From contig CBDCTS010000007.1 in NCBI GenBank assembly GCA_965222345.1, forward strand, positions 43,853 to 107,852: a stretch of DNA of 64,000 bases, given 5' to 3'. The stretch comes from Terriglobia bacterium. GTDB lineage: Bacteria > Acidobacteriota > Terriglobia > 2-12-FULL-54-10. How positions within the stretch are numbered: position 1 is the first letter of the stretch; each line of letters begins with the position of its first letter. Below, in pieces: positions 1,207-56,352 of this stretch. Position numbers and translations under genes: made by a program. The notes beneath the pieces are model-generated. The model was not told the origin of the DNA and searched no databases. It saw only the letters and a list, made by a program, of their open reading frames with translations.

Positions 1207-1207
1207 T

Positions 1208-2621
1208 GTTGTTAGCAAGTTAAAATGTCCGGTATATGTAGCAAGTGAAATGTCCGCTTTCATGATTCTACCGAAAGTGATTTGGCGCTGACCGAAGGAG
1301 CCCGTAGGGCGACGGAGGTGAGCGCCAAATGGTGTTGTCGGGAAGCCACAGGGCTCCGCCGCCGACCGCCGCACCGGATCGCCACCCCCTCGGAGGAGTA
1401 GCGGCCCACCGTGTGCGGCCCATAGCCAATGCTTAACGTCCCATCCAGGTGTTCATAGACGGTCACCCGGCAGCCCGCCAGAGTCCCGCGCCAAGGAGTT
1501 TTCTCGATCTGGAGGAGGCGGTTCTCCAGACTGACCGTATTGTCCCGATTCACTATCCGCTGGTGCTGGATCGAGAAGATTCGCTCTAACTCCCGCCTGG
1601 CTGACGGCAAAAAGGCGCTGCCTGGTTGGGTGGCCGGCACGGCAAAGCGCCGGTTGAACTCCCCGATATAGCCCTCCCGCAGGAACCGATTCGCTGCCTC
1701 TAGCGTGATGATTCCCCGCAGGCGCAGTTCCTGCGGCAGCCGCCCTTGCCAGGTCCCGAAGTTCCGCTCGCTGCGTCCCCGCGCCTGCGGCGAATAGGCC
1801 GGAATCATCTGAATGCCCAGCTCCCGCAGGGCGCGGCCCACCTGGGTCAGCCGTTGCCGATCCACCGGCTCGCCCGCCTTCCGGGTCAGGAAGAAATGAC
1901 TGGCCCGGTCGCTATAAAGGGCGCAAAAGATCCCCTGCTGCTCGACCACCTCCCGCAGGGCAGCCAGCACCGTCCGCGTCGATTCCTGCTCTACCAGTTG
2001 CGCATAGTAAATCTCGCTGCTGGCATCATCCAGGACCACCAGCAGGTCATACCAGCGATCATCGACAAACCACCGATGCTGGCTCCCATCCAGATGCAGC
2101 AGCATTCCCGGCAACGGCCGCCGGGGCCGCCTCTGGCGGTGCAGGCCCCGCTTCCGCCTCCTGTTCACTAGCCCCGCCCCTTGCAATGCCAGCTTCACCC
2201 AGGTGTAGCTCAGCCGGAGGCCGTGCTCTTCCCGCAGCTTTTCGTGAAAGTGCCGCACGTTGAAGTCAAAGTACTTCTCCTGATACAGCCCCAACACCTT
2301 CTCCACCGTCCCCAGGGGTACCCGCCGCGGACTCGGCTTTCCCCGCCGCCGGTCAAACAGCCCGTCGTAGCCGTACTGCTCGTACCGGCTGCGCCACCGC
2401 CTCATCTGCCGGTCGCTGATCCCGATGATCTCGGCTGCCTGCCACCAGTTGATCCGCTTCCCTATCGCTCGCAAAATTACTTCTTGTATCTTCATCGCCC
2501 GCTCCATCGCAGCTTCCGAGTAGAACTTCATGCCACCTCCTGGCAAAAAGCCCTACCCTACGCCGCTCAAAGCGGACATTTCACATGTTAATTAGACCGG
2601 ACATATCATGTGCTAAGAACA
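1208..2621 (-). mobile_element. ISNCY-family (IS1202-group-like) insertion sequence, copy 1 of a head-to-tail tandem pair
   Basis: ~1414 bp with imperfect ~48-bp terminal inverted repeats (TGTTGTTAGCAAGTTAAAATGTCCGG...GTGAAATGTCCGCTTT). Single 428-aa HTH + rve transposase. 99-100% identical to the copies at 2640..4052 and 37068..38482. Confidence 0.85.
1260..2546 (-). CDS. DDE transposase (N-terminal HTH + rve integrase core), ISNCY/IS1202-like
   Basis: 428-aa ORF, identical in all three copies. The N-terminal segment AAEIIGISDRQMRRWRSRYEQYGYDGL...RRGKPSPRR...LYQEKYFDFNVRHFHEKL matches the IS1202-group transposase architecture. Confidence 0.8.
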   Translation of the reverse strand: MPGGGMKFYSEAAMERAMKIQEVILRAIGKRINWWQAAEIIGISDRQMRRWRSRYEQYGYDGLFDRRRGKPSPRRVPLGTVEKVLGLYQEKYFDFNVRHFHEKLREEHGLRLSYTWVKLALQGAGLVNRRRKRGLHRQRRPRRPLPGMLLHLDGSQHRWFVDDRWYDLLVVLDDASSEIYYAQLVEQESTRTVLAALREVVEQQGIFCALYSDRASHFFLTRKAGEPVDRQRLTQVGRALRELGIQMIPAYSPQARGRSERNFGTWQGRLPQELRLRGIITLEAANRFLREGYIGEFNRRFAVPATQPGSAFLPSARRELERIFSIQHQRIVNRDNTVSLENRLLQIEKTPWRGTLAGCRVTVYEHLDGTLSIGYGPHTVGRYSSEGVAIRCGGRRRSPVASRQHHLALTSVALRAPSVSAKSLSVES

Positions 2622-2639
2622 AGCCATCGCTATTTTCTG

Positions 2640-4052
2640 TTGTTAGCAAGTTAAAATGTCCGGTATATGTAGCAAGTGAAATGTCCGCTTTCATGATTCT
2701 ACCGAAAGTGATTTGGCGCTGACCGAAGGAGCCCGTAGGGCGACGGAGGTGAGCGCCAAATGGTGTTGTCGGGAAGCCACAGGGCTCCGCCGCCGACCGC
2801 CGCACCGGATCGCCACCCCCTCGGAGGAGTAGCGGCCCACCGTGTGCGGCCCATAGCCAATGCTTAACGTCCCATCCAGGTGTTCATAGACGGTCACCCG
2901 GCAGCCCGCCAGAGTCCCGCGCCAAGGAGTTTTCTCGATCTGGAGGAGGCGGTTCTCCAGACTGACCGTATTGTCCCGATTCACTATCCGCTGGTGCTGG
3001 ATCGAGAAGATTCGCTCTAACTCCCGCCTGGCTGACGGCAAAAAGGCGCTGCCTGGTTGGGTGGCCGGCACGGCAAAGCGCCGGTTGAACTCCCCGATAT
3101 AGCCCTCCCGCAGGAACCGATTCGCTGCCTCTAGCGTGATGATTCCCCGCAGGCGCAGTTCCTGCGGCAGCCGCCCTTGCCAGGTCCCGAAGTTCCGCTC
3201 GCTGCGTCCCCGCGCCTGCGGCGAATAGGCCGGAATCATCTGAATGCCCAGCTCCCGCAGGGCGCGGCCCACCTGGGTCAGCCGTTGCCGATCCACCGGC
3301 TCGCCCGCCTTCCGGGTCAGGAAGAAATGACTGGCCCGGTCGCTATAAAGGGCGCAAAAGATCCCCTGCTGCTCGACCACCTCCCGCAGGGCAGCCAGCA
3401 CCGTCCGCGTCGATTCCTGCTCTACCAGTTGCGCATAGTAAATCTCGCTGCTGGCATCATCCAGGACCACCAGCAGGTCATACCAGCGATCATCGACAAA
3501 CCACCGATGCTGGCTCCCATCCAGATGCAGCAGCATTCCCGGTAACGGCCGCCGGGGCCGCCTCTGGCGGTGCAGGCCCCGCTTCCGCCTCCTGTTCACT
3601 AGCCCCGCCCCTTGCAATGCCAGCTTCACCCAGGTGTAGCTCAGCCGGAGGCCGTGCTCTTCCCGCAGCTTTTCGTGAAAGTGCCGCACGTTGAAGTCAA
3701 AGTACTTCTCCTGATACAGCCCCAACACCTTCTCCACCGTCCCCAGGGGTACCCGCCGCGGACTCGGCTTTCCCCGCCGCCGGTCAAACAGCCCGTCGTA
3801 GCCGTACTGCTCGTACCGGCTGCGCCACCGCCTCATCTGCCGGTCGCTGATCCCGATGATCTCGGCTGCCTGCCACCAGTTGATCCGCTTCCCTATCGCT
3901 CGCAAAATTACTTCTTGTATCTTCATCGCCCGCTCCATCGCAGCTTCCGAGTAGAACTTCATGCCACCTCCTGGCAAAAAGCCCTACCCTACGCCGCTCA
4001 AAGCGGACATTTCACATGTTAATTAGACCGGACATATCATGTGCTAACGACA
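2640..4052 (-). mobile_element. ISNCY/IS1202-like insertion sequence, copy 2 (tandem with copy 1)
   Basis: Same ends as copy 1. Separated from copy 1 by an ~18-bp spacer. A 17-bp direct repeat of target DNA (GACCTGGCCCTGAAGGT) flanks the pair at 1190..1206 and 4053..4069. Confidence 0.85.
2691..3977 (-). CDS. DDE transposase, ISNCY/IS1202-like (identical to 1260..2546)
   Basis: 428 aa, 100% identical protein. Confidence 0.8.
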   Translation of the reverse strand: MPGGGMKFYSEAAMERAMKIQEVILRAIGKRINWWQAAEIIGISDRQMRRWRSRYEQYGYDGLFDRRRGKPSPRRVPLGTVEKVLGLYQEKYFDFNVRHFHEKLREEHGLRLSYTWVKLALQGAGLVNRRRKRGLHRQRRPRRPLPGMLLHLDGSQHRWFVDDRWYDLLVVLDDASSEIYYAQLVEQESTRTVLAALREVVEQQGIFCALYSDRASHFFLTRKAGEPVDRQRLTQVGRALRELGIQMIPAYSPQARGRSERNFGTWQGRLPQELRLRGIITLEAANRFLREGYIGEFNRRFAVPATQPGSAFLPSARRELERIFSIQHQRIVNRDNTVSLENRLLQIEKTPWRGTLAGCRVTVYEHLDGTLSIGYGPHTVGRYSSEGVAIRCGGRRRSPVASRQHHLALTSVALRAPSVSAKSLSVES

Positions 4053-9551: not shown

Positions 9552-9628
9552 GGACCTGCCCCCCCAAAAACGGTCCAGTTGATAAGTTAGAGTAAAGGGT
9601 TTCAACTGGACTTGAAAAAGGGGGAAGG

Positions 9629-9907
9629 ATGGCTAAGAAGCGGTATACGGTCGAACAGATCATCCGACATCTACGAGAGGCAGAAGTGGAACTGGCTAAG
9701 GGCCAGACAACGGGAGTGGTCTGTCGGAAGTTGGGAATCACGGAGCAGACATATTATCGATGGCGGAAGGAGTATGGGAGCTTGCGGGTTGATCAGGTGA
9801 GGCGTTTGAAGGAACTGGAACGGGAGAATGGCCGACTGAAGAAGTTGGTAGCGGATCAGGCGTTGGACCTTGCGATTCTGAAGGAGGCATCCTCGGGAAA
9901 CTTCTAA
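9629..9907 (+). CDS. IS3-family transposase OrfA (HTH)
   Basis: 92 aa. MAKKRYTVEQIIRHLREAE...RWRKEYG is the typical IS3/IS911 OrfA helix-turn-helix followed by a leucine zipper. Confidence 0.85.
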   Translation: MAKKRYTVEQIIRHLREAEVELAKGQTTGVVCRKLGITEQTYYRWRKEYGSLRVDQVRRLKELERENGRLKKLVADQALDLAILKEASSGNF

Positions 9908-9930
9908 GCCCGTGCCGACGGAGGCAGGCA

Positions 9931-10782
9931 GTGGAGCGTGTCTGTCAGACCTTGGGAGTGTCGGAGCGGCGGGCGTGTCGAGTGCTGAGGCAGTACCGAT
10001 CCACCCAGCGGCATCGAACCTTGACACCACAGGATGAACCGCGACTGGTGACCCGGACGCTGCAGTTAGCCGGCGAGTACGGTCGATACGGCTACCGGCG
10101 AATCACGGCGCTGTTGCGACGGGAGGGGTGGAGGGTGAACCATAAGCGGGAGAGAATCTGGAGGCAGGAGGGACTGAAAGTGCCGAAGAAACAACCCCGG
10201 AAAAGCCGCCTGTGGTTGAACGATGGGTCGTGTCTTCGGTTAAGACCGTGCTGGCGGGATCATGTCTGGGCGTACGATTTTGTGGCAGATCGAACCCAGG
10301 ATGGTCGTCCCCTGAAGATGTTGACGGTGGTGGATGAGTACACGCGAGAATGTTTGGCAATCGACGTAGAACGGCGAGCTGATTCGATGAGTGTCTTGGA
10401 ACGGCTGGCAGCCTTGTTTGTGGAGCGAGGAGTTCCCGATTACATTCGCTCGGATAACGGGTCCGAGTTCACAGCACGGTTGGTTCGGAACTGGCTGGAG
10501 CGGGTAGGGGTAAAGACCTTGTTCATCGAGCCGGGGAGCCCATGGGAAAACGGGTATGTAGAATCGTTGAACGGGAAGTTTCGAGACGAGTTTCTCAATG
10601 GGGAGATCTTCTACACCTTGCAGGAAGCGAAGGTGTTGATTGAGGGATGGCGGCGGGAGTATAACAAAGTTCGCCCGCACAGCGCGTTAGGCTACCGGCC
10701 GCCAGCCCCGGAAGCGATCCTGCCGTTACGGCCGGGTTCCGCTCCGCTCCACCCGGCTGCAACGGCTTATGGACTAACATAA
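9931..10782 (+). CDS. IS3-family transposase OrfB (rve integrase core, DDE)
   Basis: 283 aa with the conserved integrase catalytic core. Carries a 1-codon deletion relative to the copy at 43186..44040. Confidence 0.85.
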   Translation: MERVCQTLGVSERRACRVLRQYRSTQRHRTLTPQDEPRLVTRTLQLAGEYGRYGYRRITALLRREGWRVNHKRERIWRQEGLKVPKKQPRKSRLWLNDGSCLRLRPCWRDHVWAYDFVADRTQDGRPLKMLTVVDEYTRECLAIDVERRADSMSVLERLAALFVERGVPDYIRSDNGSEFTARLVRNWLERVGVKTLFIEPGSPWENGYVESLNGKFRDEFLNGEIFYTLQEAKVLIEGWRREYNKVRPHSALGYRPPAPEAILPLRPGSAPLHPAATAYGLT

Positions 10783-10812
10783 AAAGTGGACCAACAACCG
10801 GGGGCAGGTCAC

Positions 10813-32502: not shown

Positions 32503-32577
32503 TGGTAGCGCTACCGGGAATCGAACCCGGGTTTTGAGATTGAGAATCTCACGTCCTAACCCCTAGACGATAGCGCC
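32503..32577 (-). tRNA. tRNA-Glu (anticodon CUC)
   Basis: Folded by hand on the minus strand: GGCGCUA|UC|GUC-UAGGGGUUAG-GAC|G|UGAGA-UUCUCAA-UCUCA|AAAC|CCGGG-UUCGAUU-CCCGG|UAGCGCU|A|CCA. Canonical cloverleaf closely resembling E. coli tRNA-Glu, with G1·U72 and encoded CCA. Confidence 0.8.
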
Positions 32578-32856: not shown

Positions 32857-33414
32857 CTAGACCATCATAATTTCTGTTTCCTTGTTCCTGCCCATCTCAT
32901 CCAGCCGGGCAATCCACTGGTCGGTTAATTTCTGCGCCTCGTCATGAGCGCGCCGCTCCTCATCCTCGCCGATCGTTTTATCCTTGAGCAACTTTTTAAT
33001 GGCCTCGTTGGCCTCGCGCCGGGCGTTCCTCACAGCCGTGCGGTGCGACTCCAGCACCTTGTGAAGATGTTTCACCAGATGCTTCCGGCGCTCCTCGGTC
33101 AGCGGAGGAATGGGAACGCGAATCACCTTCCCGTCGTTGAGCGGGTTCAAGCCGAGATCAGCGCTGCGAATTGCCTTTTCAATCAGCGGCATCGCCGTCG
33201 GATCCCAGGCCTGCACCAAAATTGTGGTGGGTTCCGGCACGGAAAGGGTGGCCAATTGATTGACGGGCGTAGGGGTGCCGTAATAATCCACCTTCGTATG
33301 ATCGAGCAGGGTGACGGAGGCCCGGCCAGTACGTAGGGTAGCTAGTTCCGAGCGCAGGTCTTCGCTTACTTTCTCCATTCGCCGCTTTGCTGCGGTGAGA
33401 GCATCTTTTGTCAT
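32857..33414 (-). CDS. frr: Ribosome recycling factor
   Basis: 185 aa, full-length similarity to RRF (…VRVPIPPLTEERRKHLVK…). Confidence 0.9.
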   Translation of the reverse strand: MTKDALTAAKRRMEKVSEDLRSELATLRTGRASVTLLDHTKVDYYGTPTPVNQLATLSVPEPTTILVQAWDPTAMPLIEKAIRSADLGLNPLNDGKVIRVPIPPLTEERRKHLVKHLHKVLESHRTAVRNARREANEAIKKLLKDKTIGEDEERRAHDEAQKLTDQWIARLDEMGRNKETEIMMV

Positions 33415-33457
33415 GAGCTGTTCCCAAGCTGGTTTTCCGGGTCCGCTGGAATCAAGA

Positions 33458-34177
33458 TCAGCCGCTTACCAGCGAACCCACCTTTTCCCCCAGAATGACA
33501 CGCACGATATTTCCTGGCTCATTGAGGTTGAAGACAACGATGGGCAGGCCGTGGTCGCGGCACAGCGAAAGTGCCGTAGAATCCATGACGGCCAAATTCT
33601 GGGAGATCATTTCCAGATAAGAGATTTCCGAAAACATCTTGGCGTCCTTGACCTTGACCGGGTCCGCATCGTATATGCCGTCCACTTTAGTGGCTTTTAA
33701 GATCACCTCGGCCCGAATCTCCATGGCGCGCAAGGCGGCTGCCGTATCGGTGGAAAAAAAAGGATTCCCCGTGCCCGCAGCAAAGATCACCACGCGGCCC
33801 TTTTCCAGATGGCGGAGGGCGCGACGGCGAATGTAAGGCTCCGCGACCTGATGCATCGCCATGGCGGTCATCAGCCGCGTCTGGACTCCTTGTTTTTCCA
33901 GCGCATCCTGCAAAGCGATGCCGTTGATCAGGGTTGCCAGCATGCCCATGTGGTCCGCGGCCACCCGGTCCATGTCCCGGGCCGCTCCGGCAAATCCCCG
34001 GAAGATGTTTCCTCCTCCGATGACCAGGGCCGTTTGAACGCCCAGATGGGTGATCTCGCAGACCTGCTGCGCGATTTCCCGGAAGCGGGCCGCACCGATG
34101 CCGTATCCGGAGGCGCCAGCTAGCGCCTCTCCGCTCAGCTTCAGCAAAACACGATTGAAAACGGGTTTAGGGGACAT
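33458..34177 (-). CDS. pyrH: UMP kinase
   Basis: 239 aa, …[12 protein letters not shown]…[14 protein letters not shown]… Ends in TGA, showing that TGA is a normal stop codon in this genome. Confidence 0.9.
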
Positions 34178-34191
34178 GGAGGAAGGAGCTC

Positions 34192-34824
34192 TTAGCTCGC
34201 GTTGGAGGTCCTCTCCGTACTCTCGCCAACCTTAAAACGGACAAAGCGCTGCACGCTGATATTTTCCCTGAGCTTTCCGATCGCGGAGGCGATGATCTGG
34301 CCTACCGTCTGTCCCGGGTCCTTGACAAAGTGCTGCTCCAGAAGACAAACCTCTTCATAGAACTTCTCCATCTTGCCTTGCACAATGCGGTCCAGCACTT
34401 TTTCCGGCTTGCCCAACGCCTGAGCCTGCACCCGGTAAATCTCTTTCTCCTTTTCCAGAATCTCCGGGGTCACTTCTTCCTTGCGGATGAAACGCGGGTC
34501 CGAGGCGGCGATGTGCATTGCAAGATCGTGCGCCAGTTGCTGAAACTCTGCGGTGCGGGCCACAAAGTCGGTTTCGCAGTTCAGCTCCACCAATACTCCG
34601 ATCTTTGAGCCGGCGTGAATGTAGGAGCCGACCAACCCCTCCAGCGTGGCGCGTCCTGCCTTCTTTTGCGCTGCGGCGAGACCTCTCTTGCGCAGAACCA
34701 ATTCCGCTCCGTCCAGGTCTCCTTTGGACTCGGTGAGCGCCGCTTTGCAATCCGACCAGGGGGCGCCGGTCCGCTCTCGAAGTTGCTTCACAGTTTGTGC
34801 TGAAATGTTGCTCTTGGTTTCCAT
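34192..34824 (-). CDS. tsf: Elongation factor Ts
   Basis: 210 aa, N-terminal UBA-like …[19 protein letters not shown]… and EF-Ts core. Confidence 0.9.
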
Positions 34825-35061
34825 AATTTTGGGATGACCTGCTATCGGAATCGCTTTTGCCGCCTAGTTCCAGCGATGTTTTTTGCGGAACCTTTACTCC
34901 AGTACTCCAGAGGGGAACAGCGGAACTTCCCCGTTCGCTCCCCTCAACCTGCCCGCATGCAAGTCCTGCTTCCGGATAACCTTTTGCGATTGCAGAACTG
35001 GCTGAGAACCAAACAGCCAAGCGGTGAAGAATGTCACAATATCCGGGCTAGCGTAGTAGTC

Positions 35062-35940
35062 CTACTGGACGCTCCCCGGGGCCGCCACGTTAGGGGTATT
35101 GGCGGGCAAATCTTGCTTCCCTGCCGGTTCAACCGCTGGCCCTTTTCGCAACTCGGAATACGGCAGCGAACTTTCTTCTTCCACGTACGGTGCAGTATCC
35201 TGGCTTTCGGCGGCCTCCTCGGAGGCTCTGCGCTCTTCCTCCAAGGCATTCTCAGCAGCGATTTTTCTTCCTTCCAGGACTGCATCGGCCACTTTGGAGG
35301 CGAATAGACGGATGGCCCGCAAGGCGTCATCATTACCGGGAATGATGTATGTCACCTTATCCGGATCGCAATTGGTGTCCACTACTCCCACTACCGGGAT
35401 TTCCAGCTTGCGCGCCTCGTGAACCGCAATCTCTTCTTTGTGGGAATCAATTACAAAAACGGCGTCCGGAAGGCCGGGCATATCCTTGATGCCGGAGAGG
35501 TTTTGCTCCAGATGCTTCCGTTCACGCTCCAGCTTGATGACTTCTTTTTTGGGCAGCAACTCGTAGCGGCCGTCCTCGGACATCTCATCCAGATCTTTGA
35601 GCCTCTGAATCGACTTCCGAATGGTCTCGAAATTGGTCAGCAACCCGCCCAGCCATCGCTGGTTAACAAAAAACATGGAACATCGCCGGGCCTCTTCGAC
35701 GATAGCTTCCTGCGCCTGCCGCTTGGTTCCTACAAACAGGAGAGTCTTCCCCTCCTTGGCCAACTCCACCACAAACCGAGTGGCTTCCTTAAACATCTTG
35801 AGGGTCTTCTGCAAGTCAATAATATGGATGCCATTGCGTTGCCCGAAAATATACTCCTTCATTTTCGGATTCCAGCGCCTGGTCTGGTGACCAAAGTGAA
35901 CGCCAGCCTCCAACAACTCTTTCATTGTAATTGCCGCCAA
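35062..35940 (-). CDS. rpsB: 30S ribosomal protein S2
   Basis: …[19 protein letters not shown]… with an acidic C-terminal extension. Confidence 0.9.
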
Positions 35941-37020: not shown

Positions 37021-37067
37021 TCAGATTAGTGAAGCAAACCCAAATTGTCAAGTAGGAGAGGGCTTTG

Positions 37068-38482
37068 TGTCGTTAGCACATGATATGTCCGGTCTAATTA
37101 ACATGTGAAATGTCCGCTTTGAGCGGCGTAGGGTAGGGCTTTTTGCCAGGAGGTGGCATGAAGTTCTACTCGGAAGCTGCGATGGAGCGGGCGATGAAGA
37201 TACAAGAAGTAATTTTGCGAGCGATAGGGAAGCGGATCAACTGGTGGCAGGCAGCCGAGATCATCGGGATCAGCGACCGGCAGATGAGGCGGTGGCGCAG
37301 CCGGTACGAGCAGTACGGCTACGACGGGCTGTTTGACCGGCGGCGGGGAAAGCCGAGTCCGCGGCGGGTACCCCTGGGGACGGTGGAGAAGGTGTTGGGG
37401 CTGTATCAGGAGAAGTACTTTGACTTCAACGTGCGGCACTTTCACGAAAAGCTGCGGGAAGAGCACGGCCTCCGGCTGAGCTACACCTGGGTGAAGCTGG
37501 CATTGCAAGGGGCGGGGCTAGTGAACAGGAGGCGGAAGCGGGGCCTGCACCGCCAGAGGCGGCCCCGGCGGCCGTTGCCGGGAATGCTGCTGCATCTGGA
37601 TGGGAGCCAGCATCGGTGGTTTGTCGATGATCGCTGGTATGACCTGCTGGTGGTCCTGGATGATGCCAGCAGCGAGATTTACTATGCGCAACTGGTAGAG
37701 CAGGAATCGACGCGGACGGTGCTGGCTGCCCTGCGGGAGGTGGTCGAGCAGCAGGGGATCTTTTGCGCCCTTTATAGCGACCGGGCCAGTCATTTCTTCC
37801 TGACCCGGAAGGCGGGCGAGCCGGTGGATCGGCAACGGCTGACCCAGGTGGGCCGCGCCCTGCGGGAGCTGGGCATTCAGATGATTCCGGCCTATTCGCC
37901 GCAGGCGCGGGGACGCAGCGAGCGGAACTTCGGGACCTGGCAAGGGCGGCTGCCGCAGGAACTGCGCCTGCGGGGAATCATCACGCTAGAGGCAGCGAAT
38001 CGGTTCCTGCGGGAGGGCTATATCGGGGAGTTCAACCGGCGCTTTGCCGTGCCGGCCACCCAACCAGGCAGCGCCTTTTTGCCGTCAGCCAGGCGGGAGT
38101 TAGAGCGAATCTTCTCGATCCAGCACCAGCGGATAGTGAATCGGGACAATACGGTCAGTCTGGAGAACCGCCTCCTCCAGATCGAGAAAACTCCTTGGCG
38201 CGGGACTCTGGCGGGCTGCCGGGTGACCGTCTATGAACACCTGGATGGGACGTTAAGCATTGGCTATGGGCCGCACACGGTGGGCCGCTACTCCTCCGAG
38301 GGGGTGGCGATCCGGTGCGGCGGTCGGCGGCGGAGCCCTGTGGCTTCCCGACAACACCATTTGGCGCTCACCTCCGTCGCCCTACGGGCTCCTTCGGTCA
38401 GCGCCAAATCACTTTCGGTAGAATCATGAAAGCGGACATTTCACTTGCTACATATACCGGACATTTTAACTTGCTAACAACA
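37068..38482 (+). mobile_element. ISNCY/IS1202-like insertion sequence, copy 3 (inverted relative to copies 1 and 2)
   Basis: Same IRs and transposase. Flanked by a 16-bp direct repeat GTAGGAGAGGGCTTTG (37052..37067 and 38483..38498). Inserted 1 bp upstream of a TTGACA-N17-TAATCT promoter-like sequence facing rplM. Confidence 0.85.
37143..38429 (+). CDS. DDE transposase, ISNCY/IS1202-like (identical to copies 1 and 2)
   Basis: 428 aa, identical protein. Confidence 0.8.
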   Translation: MPGGGMKFYSEAAMERAMKIQEVILRAIGKRINWWQAAEIIGISDRQMRRWRSRYEQYGYDGLFDRRRGKPSPRRVPLGTVEKVLGLYQEKYFDFNVRHFHEKLREEHGLRLSYTWVKLALQGAGLVNRRRKRGLHRQRRPRRPLPGMLLHLDGSQHRWFVDDRWYDLLVVLDDASSEIYYAQLVEQESTRTVLAALREVVEQQGIFCALYSDRASHFFLTRKAGEPVDRQRLTQVGRALRELGIQMIPAYSPQARGRSERNFGTWQGRLPQELRLRGIITLEAANRFLREGYIGEFNRRFAVPATQPGSAFLPSARRELERIFSIQHQRIVNRDNTVSLENRLLQIEKTPWRGTLAGCRVTVYEHLDGTLSIGYGPHTVGRYSSEGVAIRCGGRRRSPVASRQHHLALTSVALRAPSVSAKSLSVES

Positions 38483-38794
38483 GTAGGAGAGGGCTTTGGA
38501 CACTGCAAGGGTAGCCCGGTTGACTTAATTTCAGTTGCCGATTCCTGTTGAAATACCGCACTGCACTTGGCTGCCCAGTCCGCGCAGGACCGGGGCAAGG
38601 GAAGCATCCGTTGCAGCACTCCGTTGATATTTCCCCATTTGCCAACCTCCTCTTGTCCTCGATTTGGCCGCCACGGCGCTCTTTACGCATCCGGCCAAAA
38701 AGGCTAGGATGACTAGCCGATCAAACTCCCCCGGCAGGGGATCACCGTTGTGACCTGAAGACATCCATGCCGGGGTGAACGAGGAAACTTCTGC

Positions 38795-43155: not shown

Positions 43156-43185
43156 GTGACCTGCCCCCGGTTGTTGGTCCACTTT

Positions 43186-44040
43186 TTATGTTAGTCCATA
43201 AGCCGTTGCAGCCGGGTGGAGCGGAGCGGAACCCGGCCGTAACGGCAGGATCGCTTCCGGGGCTGGCGGCCGGTAGCCTAACGCGCTGTGCGGGCGAACT
43301 TTGTTATACTCCCGCCGCCATCCCTCAATCAACACCTTCGCTTCCTGCAAGGTGTAGAAGATCTCCCCATTGAGAAACTCGTCTCGAAACTTCCCGTTCA
43401 ACGATTCTACATACCCGTTTTCCCATGGGCTCCCCGGCTCGATGAACAAGGTCTTTACCCCTACCCGCTCCAGCCAGTTCCGAACCAACCGTGCTGTGAA
43501 CTCGGACCCGTTATCCGAGCGAATGTAATCGGGAACTCCTCGCTCCACAAACAAGGCTGCCAGCCGTTCCAAGACACTCATCGAATCAGCTCGCCGTTCT
43601 ACGTCGATTGCCAAACATTCTCGCGTGTACTCATCCACCACCGTCAACATCTTCAGGGGACGACCATCCTGGGTTCGATCTGCCACAAAATCGTACGCCC
43701 AGACATGATCCCGCCAGCACGGTCTTAACCGAAGACACGACCCATCGTTCAACCACAGGCGGCTTTTCCGGGGTTGTTTCTTCGGCACTTTCAGTCCCTC
43801 CTGCCTCCAGATTCTCTCCACCCGCTTATGGTTCACCCTCCACCCCTCCCGTCGCAACAGCGCCGTGATTCGCCGGTAGCCGTATCGACCGTACTCGCCG
43901 GCTAACTGCAGCGTCCGGGTCACCAGTCGCGGTTCATCCTGTGGTGTCAAGGTTCGATGCCGCTGGGTGGATCGGTACTGCCTCAGCACTCGACACGCCC
44001 GCCGCTCCGACACTCCCAAGGTCTGACAGACACGCTCCAC
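43186..44040 (-). CDS. IS3-family transposase OrfB
   Basis: 284 aa; identical to 9931..10782 except for one extra residue (HKRVERIW). Confidence 0.85.
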   Translation of the reverse strand: MERVCQTLGVSERRACRVLRQYRSTQRHRTLTPQDEPRLVTRTLQLAGEYGRYGYRRITALLRREGWRVNHKRVERIWRQEGLKVPKKQPRKSRLWLNDGSCLRLRPCWRDHVWAYDFVADRTQDGRPLKMLTVVDEYTRECLAIDVERRADSMSVLERLAALFVERGVPDYIRSDNGSEFTARLVRNWLERVGVKTLFIEPGSPWENGYVESLNGKFRDEFLNGEIFYTLQEAKVLIEGWRREYNKVRPHSALGYRPPAPEAILPLRPGSAPLHPAATAYGLT

Positions 44041-44063
44041 TGCCTGCCTCCGTCGGCACGGGC

Positions 44064-44342
44064 TTAGAAGTTTCCCGAGGATGCCTCCTTCAGAATCGCA
44101 AGGTCCAACGCCTGATCCGCTACCAACTTCTTCAGTCGGCCATTCTCCCGTTCCAGTTCCTTCAAACGCCTCACCTGATCAACCCGCAAGCTCCCATACT
44201 CCTTCCGCCATCGATAATATGTCTGCTCCGTGATTCCCAACTTCCGACAGACCACTCCCGTTGTCTGGCCCTTAGCCAGTTCCACTTCTGCCTCTCGTAG
44301 ATGTCGGATGATCTGTTCGACCGTATACCGCTTCTTAGCCAT
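44064..44342 (-). CDS. IS3-family transposase OrfA
   Basis: Identical to 9629..9907. Confidence 0.85.
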   Translation of the reverse strand: MAKKRYTVEQIIRHLREAEVELAKGQTTGVVCRKLGITEQTYYRWRKEYGSLRVDQVRRLKELERENGRLKKLVADQALDLAILKEASSGNF

Positions 44343-44419
44343 CCTTCCCCCTTTTTCAAGTCCAGTTGAAACCCTTTACTCTAACTTATCAACTGGACCG
44401 TTTTTGGGGGGGCAGGTCC

Positions 44420-55158: not shown

Positions 55159-56352
55159 GTGAGGAGAAAGCAAATGCGCAAAATCGGTTTTCAGTACAAA
55201 GAGGCCGTGGTTGTTTTGGCGTTGTATCTGATACTTGCCCCGCTCCTTTGGGGGCAAACCGGCCCAGACGGCTCTGCAGCAGCGGACTCGGAGATTCCTA
55301 CCGGTCCTGCCGTCGGCGAGATGATTCCATCCTTCCAAGCCCCGGATCAGTACGAAAAAATGCAAGACTTGAGCTCCATTCGCGGGCCCAAGGGAGCCAT
55401 GATTGTTTTTTTCCGGTCCGCGGATTGGTGACCATTCTGCAAATCGCAGCTCGTGGAGCTGGAACAGTACGCCGAAGATTTCCGGAAACAGGGAATTGGG
55501 GTCGTGGCAATCAGTTACGATCCGGTTTCTATCCTGAAGGATTTCACCGAACGGCACGGCATTTCCTTTCCCCTTCTGTCGGATCGCGGGTCCCAAATAA
55601 TCCAGCGGTTCGGGATATTGAACACCTCCACCCCACCCTACAGCTCCTCCGGCACTTTGGTATTCGGCATCCCGTATCCGGGAACTTACCTTGTGAATCG
55701 GGAAGGCGTTATCCAGTCCAAGTATTTCGAGACCAGACAAGCAGACCGCTATACTGCTCCTACCATTTTACTGCGAGAGTTTGGGTCCGATCTTGGCACG
55801 CGGGAAACCGTAGTGCAGACGGATCATCTGAGCTTGAAATACTATTCAAGCCGGGACGTGGTCCGGCCGGGTGCCCGGATCACCTTGGTGGCGGATGTGC
55901 AATTAGGGCCAAAACTGCACGTCTATGCGCCGACTGTCGAAAACTACATCCCGATCCAATTTGCGCTGGACGAAACGCCATACAGCGTGACGTTTCCGGC
56001 AGAGTACCCCGCCTCGGAAATGCTGTTCCTGCCCGCCATCAAGGAGACCGTTCCGGTTTATCATGGAACCTTCCGGGTGACTCAAGATGTCCGACTGAAG
56101 GGCCCAGGAGCCCTGAAATCAATCCTTGCCGGAAGCCGGGAGATCAAAATCAGCGGCCGGTTTCGCTACCAAGCCTGCGACGACAAAATATGCTATTTGC
56201 CCCAGACGCTTCCTTTGGAATGGGCTTTGAAAGTGGAGCCGCTCGAACGCCGGCGTGTCCCTGAATCTCTCCAACATCCCGCAGCGCCAGCGCCGTTCAG
56301 TGAAGAGATTTCCACCCCGGAATCTGCCACGGACGCCGGTGCCAGCCAGTAG
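55159..56352 (+). CDS. Candidate selenoprotein: secreted AhpC/TSA-redoxin (BCP/PrxQ-like) domain with a UxxC active site, fused to a DsbD-alpha-like domain; in-frame TGA at 55429..55431
   Basis: The ORFs 55159..55431 and 55453..56352 share one frame. The sequence reads …IVFFRSADW-U-PFCKSQLVELEQYAEDF…, so the UGA sits where redoxins have the first active-site Cys/Thr. A hairpin CAGCUC-GUG-GAGCUG lies ~16 nt downstream. The C-terminal …QACDDKICYLPQT… resembles the DsbD-alpha CxxxxxC region. Confidence 0.55.

What the first reader, a model, noticed from the sequence alone, without database searches (positions are those of the whole stretch)
55159..56352. Candidate selenocysteine-containing redoxin fused to a DsbD-alpha-like domain
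A single reading frame runs from 55159 to 56352 except for one TGA (55429..55431). The stop falls exactly at the first position of a thioredoxin-fold active-site motif: FFRSADW-[TGA]-PFCKSQLVELEQYAEDFRKQGIGVVAISYDP…FPLLSD (BCP/PrxQ-like AhpC/TSA layout, giving U-x-x-C). Established selenoprotein families of the Prx and Prx-like thiol:disulfide oxidoreductase types place Sec at this position. About 16 nt after the UGA there is a perfect 6-bp hairpin with a G/U-containing triloop (CAGCUCGUGGAGCUG). A smaller hairpin (CUGCAAAUCGCAG) lies 6 nt after it, at roughly the position of a bacterial SECIS. The downstream domain (…QACDDKICYLPQT…) resembles the N-terminal (alpha) domain of DsbD, which would make a secreted disulfide-relay protein. 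TGA is a normal stop elsewhere in the window (e.g. pyrH), so this is not a reassigned codon.
Basis: partly seen in the sequence, partly recalled or inferred. Interest (0 to 1): 0.65.

Follow-up and report, generated by a model that had tools for sequence, protein, structure and literature searches.

The report
Selenocysteine redoxin fused to DsbD-alpha-like domain
This is very probably a real selenoprotein gene: an exported two-domain thiol-disulfide redox protein whose in-frame UGA encodes selenocysteine. It belongs to a family common in soil Acidobacteriota that public annotation routinely cuts in half at that codon.

Summary
One frame runs from ATG 55174 to TAG 56352 with a single TGA at 55429-55431, in the motif W-[UGA]-P-F-C-K.

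Full-length homologues have Cys at this position. In 80 species-representative Acidobacteriota genomes plus metagenome contigs, 83 family copies carry TGA there and 6 carry TGC/TGT. Both flanks show the same coding-type conservation.

A hairpin 15 nt after the UGA (55447-55461, CAGCUC-GUG-GAGCUG) is kept through compensatory, mostly synonymous, changes. Its loop G-U never varies and sits 2 nt further from the UGA than in E. coli fdhF. Cys-form genes have mostly lost the hairpin.

In one relative, selD-selA-selB lie directly upstream of the gene. In the window, TGA ends 19 of 51 crude gene calls, so the codon is not reassigned.

The N-terminal domain has a Prx-like fold but is not a canonical peroxiredoxin. 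Sec replaces the Prx Thr and a cis-Pro replaces the Prx Arg, as in ResA/TlpA-type CxxC redoxins. The C-terminal domain is DsbD-alpha-like by Pfam and by fold, with an invariant C-x4-C pair.

UxxC "Prx-like" selenoproteins are already known. I found no description of this fusion and no curated model for it. Sec machinery in the window's own genome could not be checked. Substrate and electron-flow direction are inferred.

The parts
55161..55166 (+). Shine-Dalgarno-like GAGGAG, 7 nt upstream of the ATG
   Evidence: Read directly from the sequence.
55174..56352 (+). Complete selenoprotein gene: 392 codons including Sec86, with stop TAG at 56350-56352
   Evidence: One open frame with a single TGA. 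The same start was chosen by the ENA gene caller on L001. Full-length Cys orthologues align from residue about 10 to about 370.
55174..55260 (+). N-terminal signal peptide or signal anchor (MRK..., hydrophobic core AVVVLALYLILAPLLW), followed by a linker
   Evidence: Read from the sequence. In the AF2 model of orthologue P0012, residues 4-14 form a lone helix followed by a low-confidence linker. Export itself is inferred; no signal-peptide predictor was available.
55312..55719 (+). Prx-like (AhpC/TSA, thioredoxin-fold) redoxin domain, residues 47-182
   Evidence: Pfam PF00578 E 1e-28. Foldseek best PDB matches are Bcp4, BcpB, AhpE and ResA, target-normalised TM 0.76-0.79.
55426..55443 (+). Active-site motif W85-U86-P87-F88-C89-K90
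   Evidence: W, C/U, C and K are invariant in the family, and the motif aligns with ResA WCxxC.
55429..55431 (+). UGA read as selenocysteine (residue 86)
   Evidence: Cys stands here in 44 full-length database homologues. TGA is at the same codon in 83 family copies against 6 TGC/TGT. There is no in-frame stop in the 45 upstream codons of 78 loci, and codon-position entropy is alike on both sides.
55447..55461 (+). SECIS-like hairpin: stem CAGCUC/GAGCUG, loop GUG, with the invariant loop G-U at 55453-55454
   Evidence: 94% of cells paired, 4 of 6 pairs with changes on both sides, 0 of 500 shuffles as good. RNAalifold recovers it. G24 and U25 are invariant. Mean dG is -9.8 kcal/mol in Sec forms against 0 to -4.9 in 5 of 6 Cys forms. 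The loop G-U is at +24/+25 against +22/+23 in E. coli fdhF.
55678..55680 (+). Pro169, the cis-Pro position of CxxC thioredoxin-fold proteins, which aligns with the catalytic Arg of peroxiredoxins
   Evidence: The AhpE alignment puts GIANRGTF against GIPYPGTY. Pro is found in all 92 family motif matches.
55789..56262 (+). DsbD-alpha-like all-beta domain as modelled (the Pfam DsbD_N match is 55867-56208)
   Evidence: Pfam PF11412, 32.3 bits against cutoff 25. AF2 model pLDDT 92.6. The ten best Foldseek PDB hits are all DsbD N-terminal domains or ScsB-alpha. tblastn to the alpha domain of a full-length DsbD in L076 gives E 9e-7.
56176..56193 (+). Second redox centre: Cys335-x4-Cys340 in YQACDDKICYLPQ
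   Evidence: Both Cys are invariant in alignments A1, A3, A4 and A5. The full-length DsbD of L076 has the same motif and spacing, YQACDANLCYPP.

Best explanation
The gene at 55174-56352 encodes an exported, or membrane-anchored and outward-facing, two-domain thiol-disulfide oxidoreductase of 392 residues. The UGA at 55429-55431 is decoded as selenocysteine.

Decoding: during translation, the hairpin at 55447-55461 presents a conserved G-U loop 21 nt after the UGA. It is expected to recruit SelB carrying Sec-tRNA(Sec), so that Sec86 is inserted instead of terminating the chain.

Catalysis: Sec86 and Cys89 form a U-x-x-C redox centre on a Prx-like thioredoxin fold of the ResA/TlpA/CcmG type, with a cis-Pro opposite the motif. 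Sec occupies the exposed, nucleophilic first position. This centre most likely exchanges electrons, through a selenenylsulfide intermediate, with the invariant Cys335-x4-Cys340 pair of the fused DsbD-alpha-like domain. DsbD-alpha does the same with the first Cys of its thioredoxin-fold partners. Reducing power would come from a CcdA/DsbD-type membrane transporter encoded elsewhere in the genome.

Shown: the UGA is functional and conserved, the hairpin covaries, the two folds are as stated, and both redox pairs are invariant.

Inferred: export, SelB dependence, electron exchange between the two domains, its direction, and the final substrate (disulfides, sulfenic acids or peroxides).
For: UGA/Cys correspondence:
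- 44 full-length homologues have SADW-C-P[YF]-CK.
- 65 of the 120 best database hits are gene calls that begin after the site, at scattered positions (query residues 94-134). So there is no conserved restart, and the short calls are annotation artefacts.
- The DNA of such calls shows TGA in frame.
- Two hits showing W at the site fit TGA read under another genetic code. L006, checked directly, has TGA there and does not translate back to its database protein under table 11.

Conservation:
- 83 copies have TGA and 6 have TGC/TGT across Bryobacterales, Terriglobia, Vicinamibacterales and others.
- Third codon positions are the most variable on both sides of the TGA, and no locus has an upstream in-frame stop.

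SECIS:
- G20:C30 switches to A20:U30 through synonymous CAG>CAA and CUG>UUG changes in 13 sequences.
- L026 and L028 have a fully rewritten stem, GAGGUG...GACCUC.
- Sec forms encode QLVEL or QLVQL in 77 of 79 copies. Cys forms mostly encode QLADL or QLVDL, whose codons break the stem.
- The loop G-U is invariant and placed as in fdhF.

Sec machinery and codon usage:
- L042 has selD-selA-selB immediately upstream on the same strand, and L020 has selB about 5 kb away.
- Acidobacteria are documented Sec users (PMC1794560, PMC12013277).
- TGA is an ordinary stop for 19 of 51 window ORFs.

Domains.
Against: - No selA, selB, selD or tRNA-Sec lies in the 64-kb window, and the rest of this genome is not available.
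- Nearly all loci come from MAGs or metagenomes, and there is no experimental evidence of selenium incorporation.
- The window hairpin alone is thermodynamically unremarkable, and its stem is only 5-6 bp, shorter than the classic fdhF SECIS.
- Much of the stem sequence is shared by descent, so the shuffle control overstates significance. The independent compensatory events number only about three or four types.
- Linkage to sel genes was seen in only 2 of about 80 loci.
- No CcdA/DsbD gene is conserved next to the gene. The electron donor, electron exchange between the domains and its direction are therefore conjecture.
Confidence: 0.85

Rival explanations
1. The protein is a Sec-dependent envelope peroxidase. 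Sec86 is oxidised by H2O2 or organic peroxides to a selenenic acid and resolved by Cys89. The fused DsbD-alpha-like domain then re-reduces it. This would be a one-polypeptide analogue of the ScsB > TlpA > PprX periplasmic peroxide-reduction pathway. It differs from the best explanation only in the substrate.
For: - The scaffold is AhpC/TSA, and the closest structures are BCP and AhpE peroxiredoxins.
- Selenols react quickly with peroxides (general chemistry of GPx and Sec-Prx, my own knowledge).
- A DsbD-family protein feeds a periplasmic peroxiredoxin in Caulobacter (PMC3322552).
Against: - The Prx signature is absent. There is no Pro at -7 and no Thr at -3 of the Cys that aligns with the peroxidatic Cys, and Pro169 replaces the catalytic Arg.
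- The NCBIfam BCP model scores 54 bits against a cutoff of 140.
- Caulobacter PrxL, a Prx-like envelope protein lacking the conserved Prx residues, had no detectable peroxidase activity (PMC3322552).
Confidence: 0.2
2. The gene is a pseudogene, or the TGA is an assembly error. Alternatively there are two real genes, an 85-aa upstream peptide and a 299-aa protein starting at GTG 55453, as current annotation has it.
For: Gene callers on the ENA contigs call exactly these two ORFs. No Sec machinery is visible in the window.
Against: - The same TGA is present in separate assemblies and in 83 family copies from different species.
- Both halves are under coding-type constraint in one frame, with no other stops.
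- The TGA splits a thioredoxin fold at its active site, so neither half could fold alone.
- Restart positions of the truncated calls are scattered over query residues 94-134.
Confidence: 0.02
3. The UGA is read through or recoded as a standard amino acid (Trp, Gly or Cys), either by genome-wide stop-codon reassignment or by near-cognate suppression, without selenium.
For: Two database entries translate the site as Trp. Cys insertion at Sec codons is known under selenium limitation in other systems (my own knowledge).
Against: - TGA terminates 19 of 51 crude ORFs in the window, including pyrH, so there is no reassignment.
- The site aligns only with Cys in homologues, never with genuine Trp or Gly. 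L006, the one W entry checked at DNA level, has TGA there.
- A hairpin maintained by compensatory changes and lost in Cys forms is what a SelB-dependent mechanism predicts.
- selD-selA-selB are adjacent to the gene in L042.
Confidence: 0.03

Closest known systems
Prx-like thiol:disulfide oxidoreductase selenoprotein family (PF00578, UxxC). It was predicted in Geobacter, Syntrophus and Desulfotalea and is listed as 'predicted with high confidence' in PMC13188914; see also PMC1794560.
   Same: AhpC/TSA (PF00578) domain with Sec at the first position of a U-x-x-C motif. It has Cys-containing homologues and is known only from bioinformatics.
   Different: The window protein carries a C-terminal DsbD-alpha-like domain with a second invariant Cys pair, plus an N-terminal export signal or anchor. 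It is found in Acidobacteriota, where the Sec form dominates the genomes sampled. No NCBIfam model reaches its cutoff. I could not obtain the Geobacter sequence, so direct orthology was not tested.
ResA / TlpA / CcmG (DsbE) extracytoplasmic CxxC thiol-disulfide oxidoreductases
   Same: Prx-like thioredoxin fold, W-C-x-x-C motif, cis-Pro loop and an N-terminal membrane anchor or signal. They are reduced by CcdA or DsbD. PDB ResA matches at E 4e-10, and the NCBIfam ResA model gives 53.5 bits.
   Different: Scores fall far below the family cutoffs (53.5 against 170). Sec replaces the first Cys. A DsbD-alpha-like domain is fused on. There is no link to cytochrome c maturation genes in the neighbourhood.
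DsbD N-terminal (alpha) domain and ScsB-alpha
   Same: Immunoglobulin-like all-beta fold. All ten best PDB matches are of this type, and the Pfam DsbD_N match is above its cutoff. The redox Cys pair sits in a ...YQ[AG]C....C[YF].P... motif. In known systems this domain exchanges electrons only with thioredoxin-fold CxxC partners.
   Different: It is not attached to the DsbD transmembrane (beta) or gamma domains, and it is fused instead to a redoxin. Sequence similarity to solved DsbD-alpha is too low for a profile search to detect, and TM scores are moderate (0.45-0.66). The spacing is C-x4-C, as in the Acidobacteriota DsbD of L076. E. coli DsbD has C-x5-C, from my memory of its sequence.
ScsB > TlpA > PprX envelope peroxide-reduction pathway, and PrxL, of Caulobacter (PMC3322552)
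   Same: A DsbD-family alpha domain delivers electrons to exported Prx-fold or Trx-fold proteins in the envelope. PrxL is a Prx-like protein that lacks the Prx catalytic residues and has an unknown redox function.
   Different: There the components are separate proteins containing Cys only. Here the alpha-like domain and the Prx-like domain form one polypeptide, and the active site contains Sec.
TsoB, the rhodanese/DsbD fusion-like selenoprotein (NF045694, UxxxxU; listed in PMC13188914)
   Same: A selenoprotein that includes a DsbD-related part, with a two-residue redox motif of x4 spacing.
   Different: It has a different architecture (rhodanese), and Sec lies in the x4 motif itself. The window protein keeps Cys in its C-x4-C and has Sec in the redoxin domain. 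NF045694 did not match at E <= 0.01.

Membership tests
Bacterial selenoprotein (SelB/SECIS-dependent UGA decoding) | In-frame UGA aligned with Cys in homologues, with both flanks conserved in one frame | tested here: met
   44 homologues have Cys at the site, 83 copies have TGA against 6 with TGC/TGT, and both sides show the same codon-position entropy pattern.
Bacterial selenoprotein (SelB/SECIS-dependent UGA decoding) | Stem-loop just downstream of the UGA with a G(U) in the apical loop at fdhF-like distance, maintained by selection | tested here: met
   The stem is 5-6 bp and covaries. The loop G-U is invariant at +24/+25, against +22/+23 in fdhF. The hairpin has decayed in 5 of 6 Cys forms. 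bSECISearch itself was not available.
Bacterial selenoprotein (SelB/SECIS-dependent UGA decoding) | selA, selB, selD and tRNA-Sec present in the same genome | not testable with these tools
In relatives, selD-selA-selB are adjacent in L042 and selB is present in L020.
Bacterial selenoprotein (SelB/SECIS-dependent UGA decoding) | Selenium demonstrated in the protein | not testable with these tools
   Needs 75Se labelling or mass spectrometry.
Prx-like thiol:disulfide oxidoreductase selenoprotein family (PF00578, UxxC) | PF00578 domain above the gathering score, with Sec in a U-x-x-C motif | tested here: met
   PF00578 scores 100 bits against a cutoff of 26. The motif is W-U-P-F-C. The family definition is taken from the table in PMC13188914.
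Peroxiredoxin (BCP/PrxQ, AhpE types) | P-x-x-x-T/S-x-x-C active-site signature | tested here: not met
   The Cys aligned with the AhpE peroxidatic Cys is C89. Position -3 is Sec, not Thr, and position -7 is Ser, not Pro.
Peroxiredoxin (BCP/PrxQ, AhpE types) | Conserved catalytic Arg | tested here: not met
   AhpE Arg116 aligns with Pro169. Pro is found in all 92 family motif matches.
Peroxiredoxin (BCP/PrxQ, AhpE types) | Prx fold, and a curated model score above its cutoff | tested here: inconclusive
   The fold matches, with target-normalised TM 0.76-0.79 to Bcp4, BcpB and AhpE. The NCBIfam BCP model gives 54 bits against 140, and PrxQ gives 32 against 260.
ResA/TlpA/CcmG CxxC oxidoreductases | W-C-x-x-C motif plus a cis-Pro loop on a Prx-like Trx fold | tested here: met
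ResA/TlpA/CcmG CxxC oxidoreductases | Curated family model above its cutoff | tested here: not met
   ResA NF002854 gives 53.5 bits against 170. DsbE TIGR00385 gives 22 against 123.
DsbD alpha domain (PF11412) | Pfam DsbD_N above its gathering score, and an Ig-like fold closest to DsbD-alpha | tested here: met
   32.3 bits against a cutoff of 25. Foldseek ranks 1-10 are all DsbD-alpha or ScsB-alpha, prob 1.00, E about 2e-5.
DsbD alpha domain (PF11412) | Redox-active Cys pair in the conserved C...C[YF]xP motif | tested here: met
   C335 and C340 are invariant. The motif matches the full-length DsbD in L076. Redox activity itself was not tested.
Full-length DsbD/ScsB (alpha-beta-gamma) | Transmembrane beta domain with two Cys, and a C-terminal thioredoxin-like gamma domain in the same protein | tested here: not met
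   There is no transmembrane domain beyond the N-terminal signal, and the order is redoxin then alpha-like.

The most novel reading that the evidence does not exclude
The protein may be the periplasmic half of a split, selenium-dependent DsbD. In this reading the Sec-containing ResA-like domain plays the role of DsbD-gamma and takes electrons directly from a separate CcdA-type membrane protein. It passes them to the fused alpha-like domain, which then serves several envelope partners. Because the Sec form is the one found in most sampled Bryobacterales and Terriglobia genomes, envelope redox homeostasis in a dominant soil phylum would depend on selenium supply.
Probability: 0.2. Interest if true: 0.65.

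Novelty: new variant of a known kind. Interest (0 to 1): 0.45.

Why it matters
- Annotation: public pipelines systematically mis-annotate this family. Sixty-five of the 120 closest database proteins are 5'-truncated calls that lack the active site, and no curated NCBIfam model recognises the family. The selenoproteome of Acidobacteriota, one of the most abundant soil phyla, is therefore under-counted.
- A test case for SECIS biology: the family gives a compact SECIS (5-6 bp stem, G-U loop) embedded in the codons for Q-L-V-E-L. It also shows how an RNA structure constrains a protein sequence, because the peptide relaxes to QLADL or QLVDL when Sec is replaced by Cys.
- Function: a redoxin fused to a DsbD-alpha-like relay domain, with Sec at the exchange site, would be a new layout for envelope reducing pathways. 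It would be a good system for asking what Sec contributes to thiol-disulfide exchange.

Tried and rejected
- Single-sequence folding of the region after the UGA gave z = -0.06. It is uninformative, so I replaced it with comparative analysis.
Rejected.
- Rfam at gathering thresholds found only a tRNA-Glu in the window. ARAGORN found no tRNA-Sec in the window or in about 1.5 Mb of related loci.
- tblastn with E. coli SelA, SelB and SelD found nothing in the window.
- A scan of the window for other genes continuing through a TGA found no other credible candidate.
- Clustering of neighbouring genes across 80 loci found no conserved partner. Only L076 has a DsbD nearby, and the window has no CcdA/DsbD.
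- A profile of the C-terminal domain against PDB sequences found nothing. A fold search on a model of that domain alone resolved the question.
I used the Cys orthologue P0012, 57% identical, instead.
- The afdb50 fold library was unavailable.
- DNA for P0032, which shows Leu at the site, could not be retrieved.
- Literature searches for this fusion as a selenoprotein found nothing specific.
Full report
OBSERVATION

Translating 55159-56352 gives one open frame with a single stop, TGA at 55429-55431, inside ...FFRSADW*PFCKSQLVELEQ.... The probable start is ATG 55174, 7 nt after GAGGAG. The ENA gene caller chose the same start for the 85-aa fragment on the near-identical contig L001. With Cys substituted for the stop, Pfam finds AhpC-TSA (residues 47-182, E 1e-28) and DsbD_N (residues 232-345, 32.3 bits against a cutoff of 25). 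The window is about 57% G+C. TGA ends 19 of 51 crude ORF calls, including the pyrH-like gene between frr and tsf, so TGA is not reassigned.

IS THE UGA A SEC CODON?

A search of 5.8 billion proteins returned two groups of close homologues:
- 44 full-length proteins have Cys at the aligned position (SADW-C-P[YF]-CK).
- 65 proteins begin only after the site, at scattered positions (query residues 94-134).
- 8 proteins of about 616 aa are tandem forms whose first module also begins after the site.
- 2 entries have Trp at the site and 1 has Leu.

DNA behind the truncated calls shows TGA at exactly that codon, with the upstream frame open and conserved. L006, one of the two Trp entries, also has TGA there and does not translate back to its database protein under table 11.

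A scan of one genome per GTDB species found at least 477 related loci. The best 80 are all labelled Acidobacteriota, apart from three probably mis-binned MAGs (two labelled Acidimicrobiia, one Bordetella). Counting those 80 loci, the ENA and JGI contigs and second copies, 83 family copies have TGA and 6 have TGC or TGT (L007 added). This count exists despite a bias towards Cys, because one search pattern required Cys and ranking favoured unbroken matches.

In 78 TGA loci there is no other in-frame stop within 45 codons upstream. Codon-position entropy is the same on both sides of the TGA: 0.95/0.73/1.52 upstream and 0.90/0.69/1.36 downstream. Together with the TGA in separate assemblies of the window's own species (L001, L002), this rules out sequencing error, a pseudogene and two separate genes.

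SECIS

The window's 62 nt after the UGA fold no better than shuffled sequence, so the case rests on comparison between sequences. In 79 distinct TGA sequences, positions +18..+23 pair with +27..+32, counting the U of UGA as 0 (window 55447-55461).
- Pair 20:30 is G:C in 64 sequences and A:U in 13. The switch comes from synonymous CAG>CAA and CUG>UUG changes.
- L026 and L028 have a rewritten stem, GAGGUG/GACCUC, which flips pairs 18:32 and 21:29.
- G24 and U25 in the loop are invariant.

The formal count on 77 distinct rows gives 94.2% of cells paired, 4 of 6 pairs with changes on both sides, and 0 of 500 shuffles as high. All slid controls reach 44% paired or less. RNAalifold finds the same helix.

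Mean hairpin dG is -9.8 kcal/mol in Sec forms, against 0 to -4.9 in five of six Cys-form genes. The sixth, L085, keeps a perfect hairpin with TGC, which suggests a recent Sec-to-Cys switch.

At the protein level, Sec forms encode QLVEL or QLVQL in 77 of 79 copies. The 44 Cys-form proteins mostly have QLADL or QLVDL. So the RNA structure, not the protein, fixes these codons.

In E. coli fdhF, fetched for comparison, the loop G-U sits at +22/+23. Here it sits at +24/+25. That SelB contacts this G-U comes from my own knowledge of the literature.

SEC MACHINERY

The window holds no selA, selB, selD or tRNA-Sec, and the rest of the genome cannot be reached. In relatives, L042 (Ca. Acidoferrum) has selD(partial)-selA-selB directly upstream of this gene on the same strand. 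L020 has selB about 5 kb away. Acidobacteria are recorded Sec users (PMC1794560; Occallatibacter in PMC12013277).

WHAT THE PROTEIN IS

The N-terminus has a basic start followed by a 17-residue hydrophobic stretch. In the model of orthologue P0012 it forms a lone helix followed by a disordered linker. This fits a signal peptide or signal anchor.

Domain 1 has a Prx-like fold. Foldseek's best matches are Bcp4, BcpB, AhpE and ResA, with target-normalised TM 0.76-0.79. The alignments show it is not a canonical peroxiredoxin:
- ResA's WCxxC aligns with W-U-P-F-C.
- The AhpE peroxidatic Cys aligns with Cys89, so Sec86 sits where Prx has its Thr.
- AhpE Arg116 aligns with Pro169, the cis-Pro position of CxxC redoxins. 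Pro is found in all 92 family motif matches.
- No NCBIfam model comes near its cutoff: BCP 54 against 140, ResA 53.5 against 170.

Domain 2, modelled from the window's own sequence (pLDDT 92.6), is all-beta. Its ten best PDB matches are all DsbD N-terminal domains or ScsB-alpha. A sequence profile of this domain alone finds nothing in the PDB. Its Cys335-x4-Cys340 pair, in YQACDDKICYLPQ, is invariant. The pair matches the motif of a full-length DsbD found in L076.

MECHANISM

Shown: a functional, conserved UGA with a selected hairpin, two folds, and two invariant redox pairs.

Inferred: SelB inserts Sec86 and the protein is exported. Sec86, at the nucleophilic first position of the U-x-x-C motif, exchanges electrons with the Cys pair of the alpha-like domain through a selenenylsulfide. 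DsbD-alpha does the same with the first Cys of its Trx-fold partners DsbC, CcmG and DsbD-gamma (PDB 1jzd, 1z5y and 1vrs appear among the fold hits). A CcdA/DsbD-type transporter would supply the electrons.

The direction of flow is open: alpha-like to redoxin to substrate, or CcdA to redoxin to alpha-like to partners. The substrate is also open. A peroxidase role remains a live rival, because selenols react with peroxides even without the Prx triad. Against that, Caulobacter PrxL, a Prx-like envelope protein lacking the conserved Prx residues, has no peroxidase activity (PMC3322552). No partner gene is conserved next to the gene.

COMPARISON AND NOVELTY

A selenoprotein family called 'Prx-like thiol:disulfide oxidoreductase' (PF00578, UxxC) has been predicted since the first bacterial selenoproteome surveys (PMC1794560; table in PMC13188914). 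By that definition the window gene belongs to it.

What I did not find described is this architecture, a redoxin plus a DsbD-alpha-like domain, or its prevalence in Acidobacteriota. No curated model covers it, and public annotation truncates it. The only DsbD-related selenoprotein in the review, TsoB, is a rhodanese fusion with Sec in the x4 motif, and it does not match.

I therefore rate this a new variant of a known kind. Confidence that the UGA encodes Sec is high, about 0.9. Confidence in the relay mechanism is moderate.

LIMITS

- Nearly all data come from MAGs, and nothing has been tested experimentally.
- The independent compensatory events in the hairpin are few.
- The shuffle control ignores phylogeny.

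Noticed in passing
window 1207-2628 (-), 2637-4052 (-), 37058-38483 (+): Three copies, 99.7-99.9% identical, of an IS element about 1.42 kb long. Each encodes the same 428-aa HTH + rve (DDE integrase-core) transposase. Two copies lie in direct tandem only about 8 nt apart, and the third is inverted 33 kb away. This suggests recent transposition, or possibly an assembly duplication.
   Followed up: partly
window 9552-10812 and 43156-44419: A second repeat pair, 1.26 kb, 99.8% identical and inverted. It encodes a 283-aa rve/rve_3 transposase (IS3-like). Together with the first IS family, these repeats bracket a large part of the window.
   Followed up: partly
window 32857-35940 (-): A conserved rpsB-tsf-pyrH-frr cluster, with tRNA-Glu(CUC) at 32503-32577 just downstream. 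The pyrH-like ORF (33458-34177) ends in TGA, which confirms ordinary stop usage.
   Followed up: yes
proteins P0001, P0003-P0009 (about 616 aa; metagenome contigs): Tandem two-module versions of the family. Module 1 is the Sec type, because its gene call starts after the UGA. Module 2 has lost the CxxC (SxxC or DxxS) but keeps the DsbD-alpha-like Cys pair. This hints that the alpha-like centre works without its own module's redoxin site.
   Followed up: partly
L042:2-5169 (Ca. Acidoferrum sp. contig DASXLU010000199.1): selD (partial), selA, selB and then this selenoprotein gene all lie on one strand, about 290 nt apart at the last junction. This may be a Sec-machinery/selenoprotein operon. L020 also has selB about 5 kb from the gene.
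   Followed up: partly
L038:9060 and 10145; L013 both strands: Some genomes carry two TGA-type paralogues. They are in tandem in L038 and on opposite strands in L013.
   Followed up: no
L085:2037 (Vicinamibacteraceae): A Cys-form (TGC) gene that still has the perfect SECIS-like hairpin, which probably marks a recent Sec-to-Cys replacement. Three of the four Vicinamibacterales loci sampled are Cys forms.
   Followed up: no
L076:6777-8576: A full-length DsbD-type protein (alpha domain YQACDANLCYPP plus a transmembrane domain with a PCxxP motif) lies 2.5 kb upstream of the selenoprotein gene. It is the only locus of about 80 with a DsbD nearby.
   Followed up: partly
protein P0032 (ENA ERZ27301951, 3.5-kb contig): This database entry shows Leu at the Sec/Cys position (SADW-L-PYCK). 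The DNA could not be retrieved, so I cannot tell whether it is a real Leu codon or a translation artefact.
   Followed up: partly
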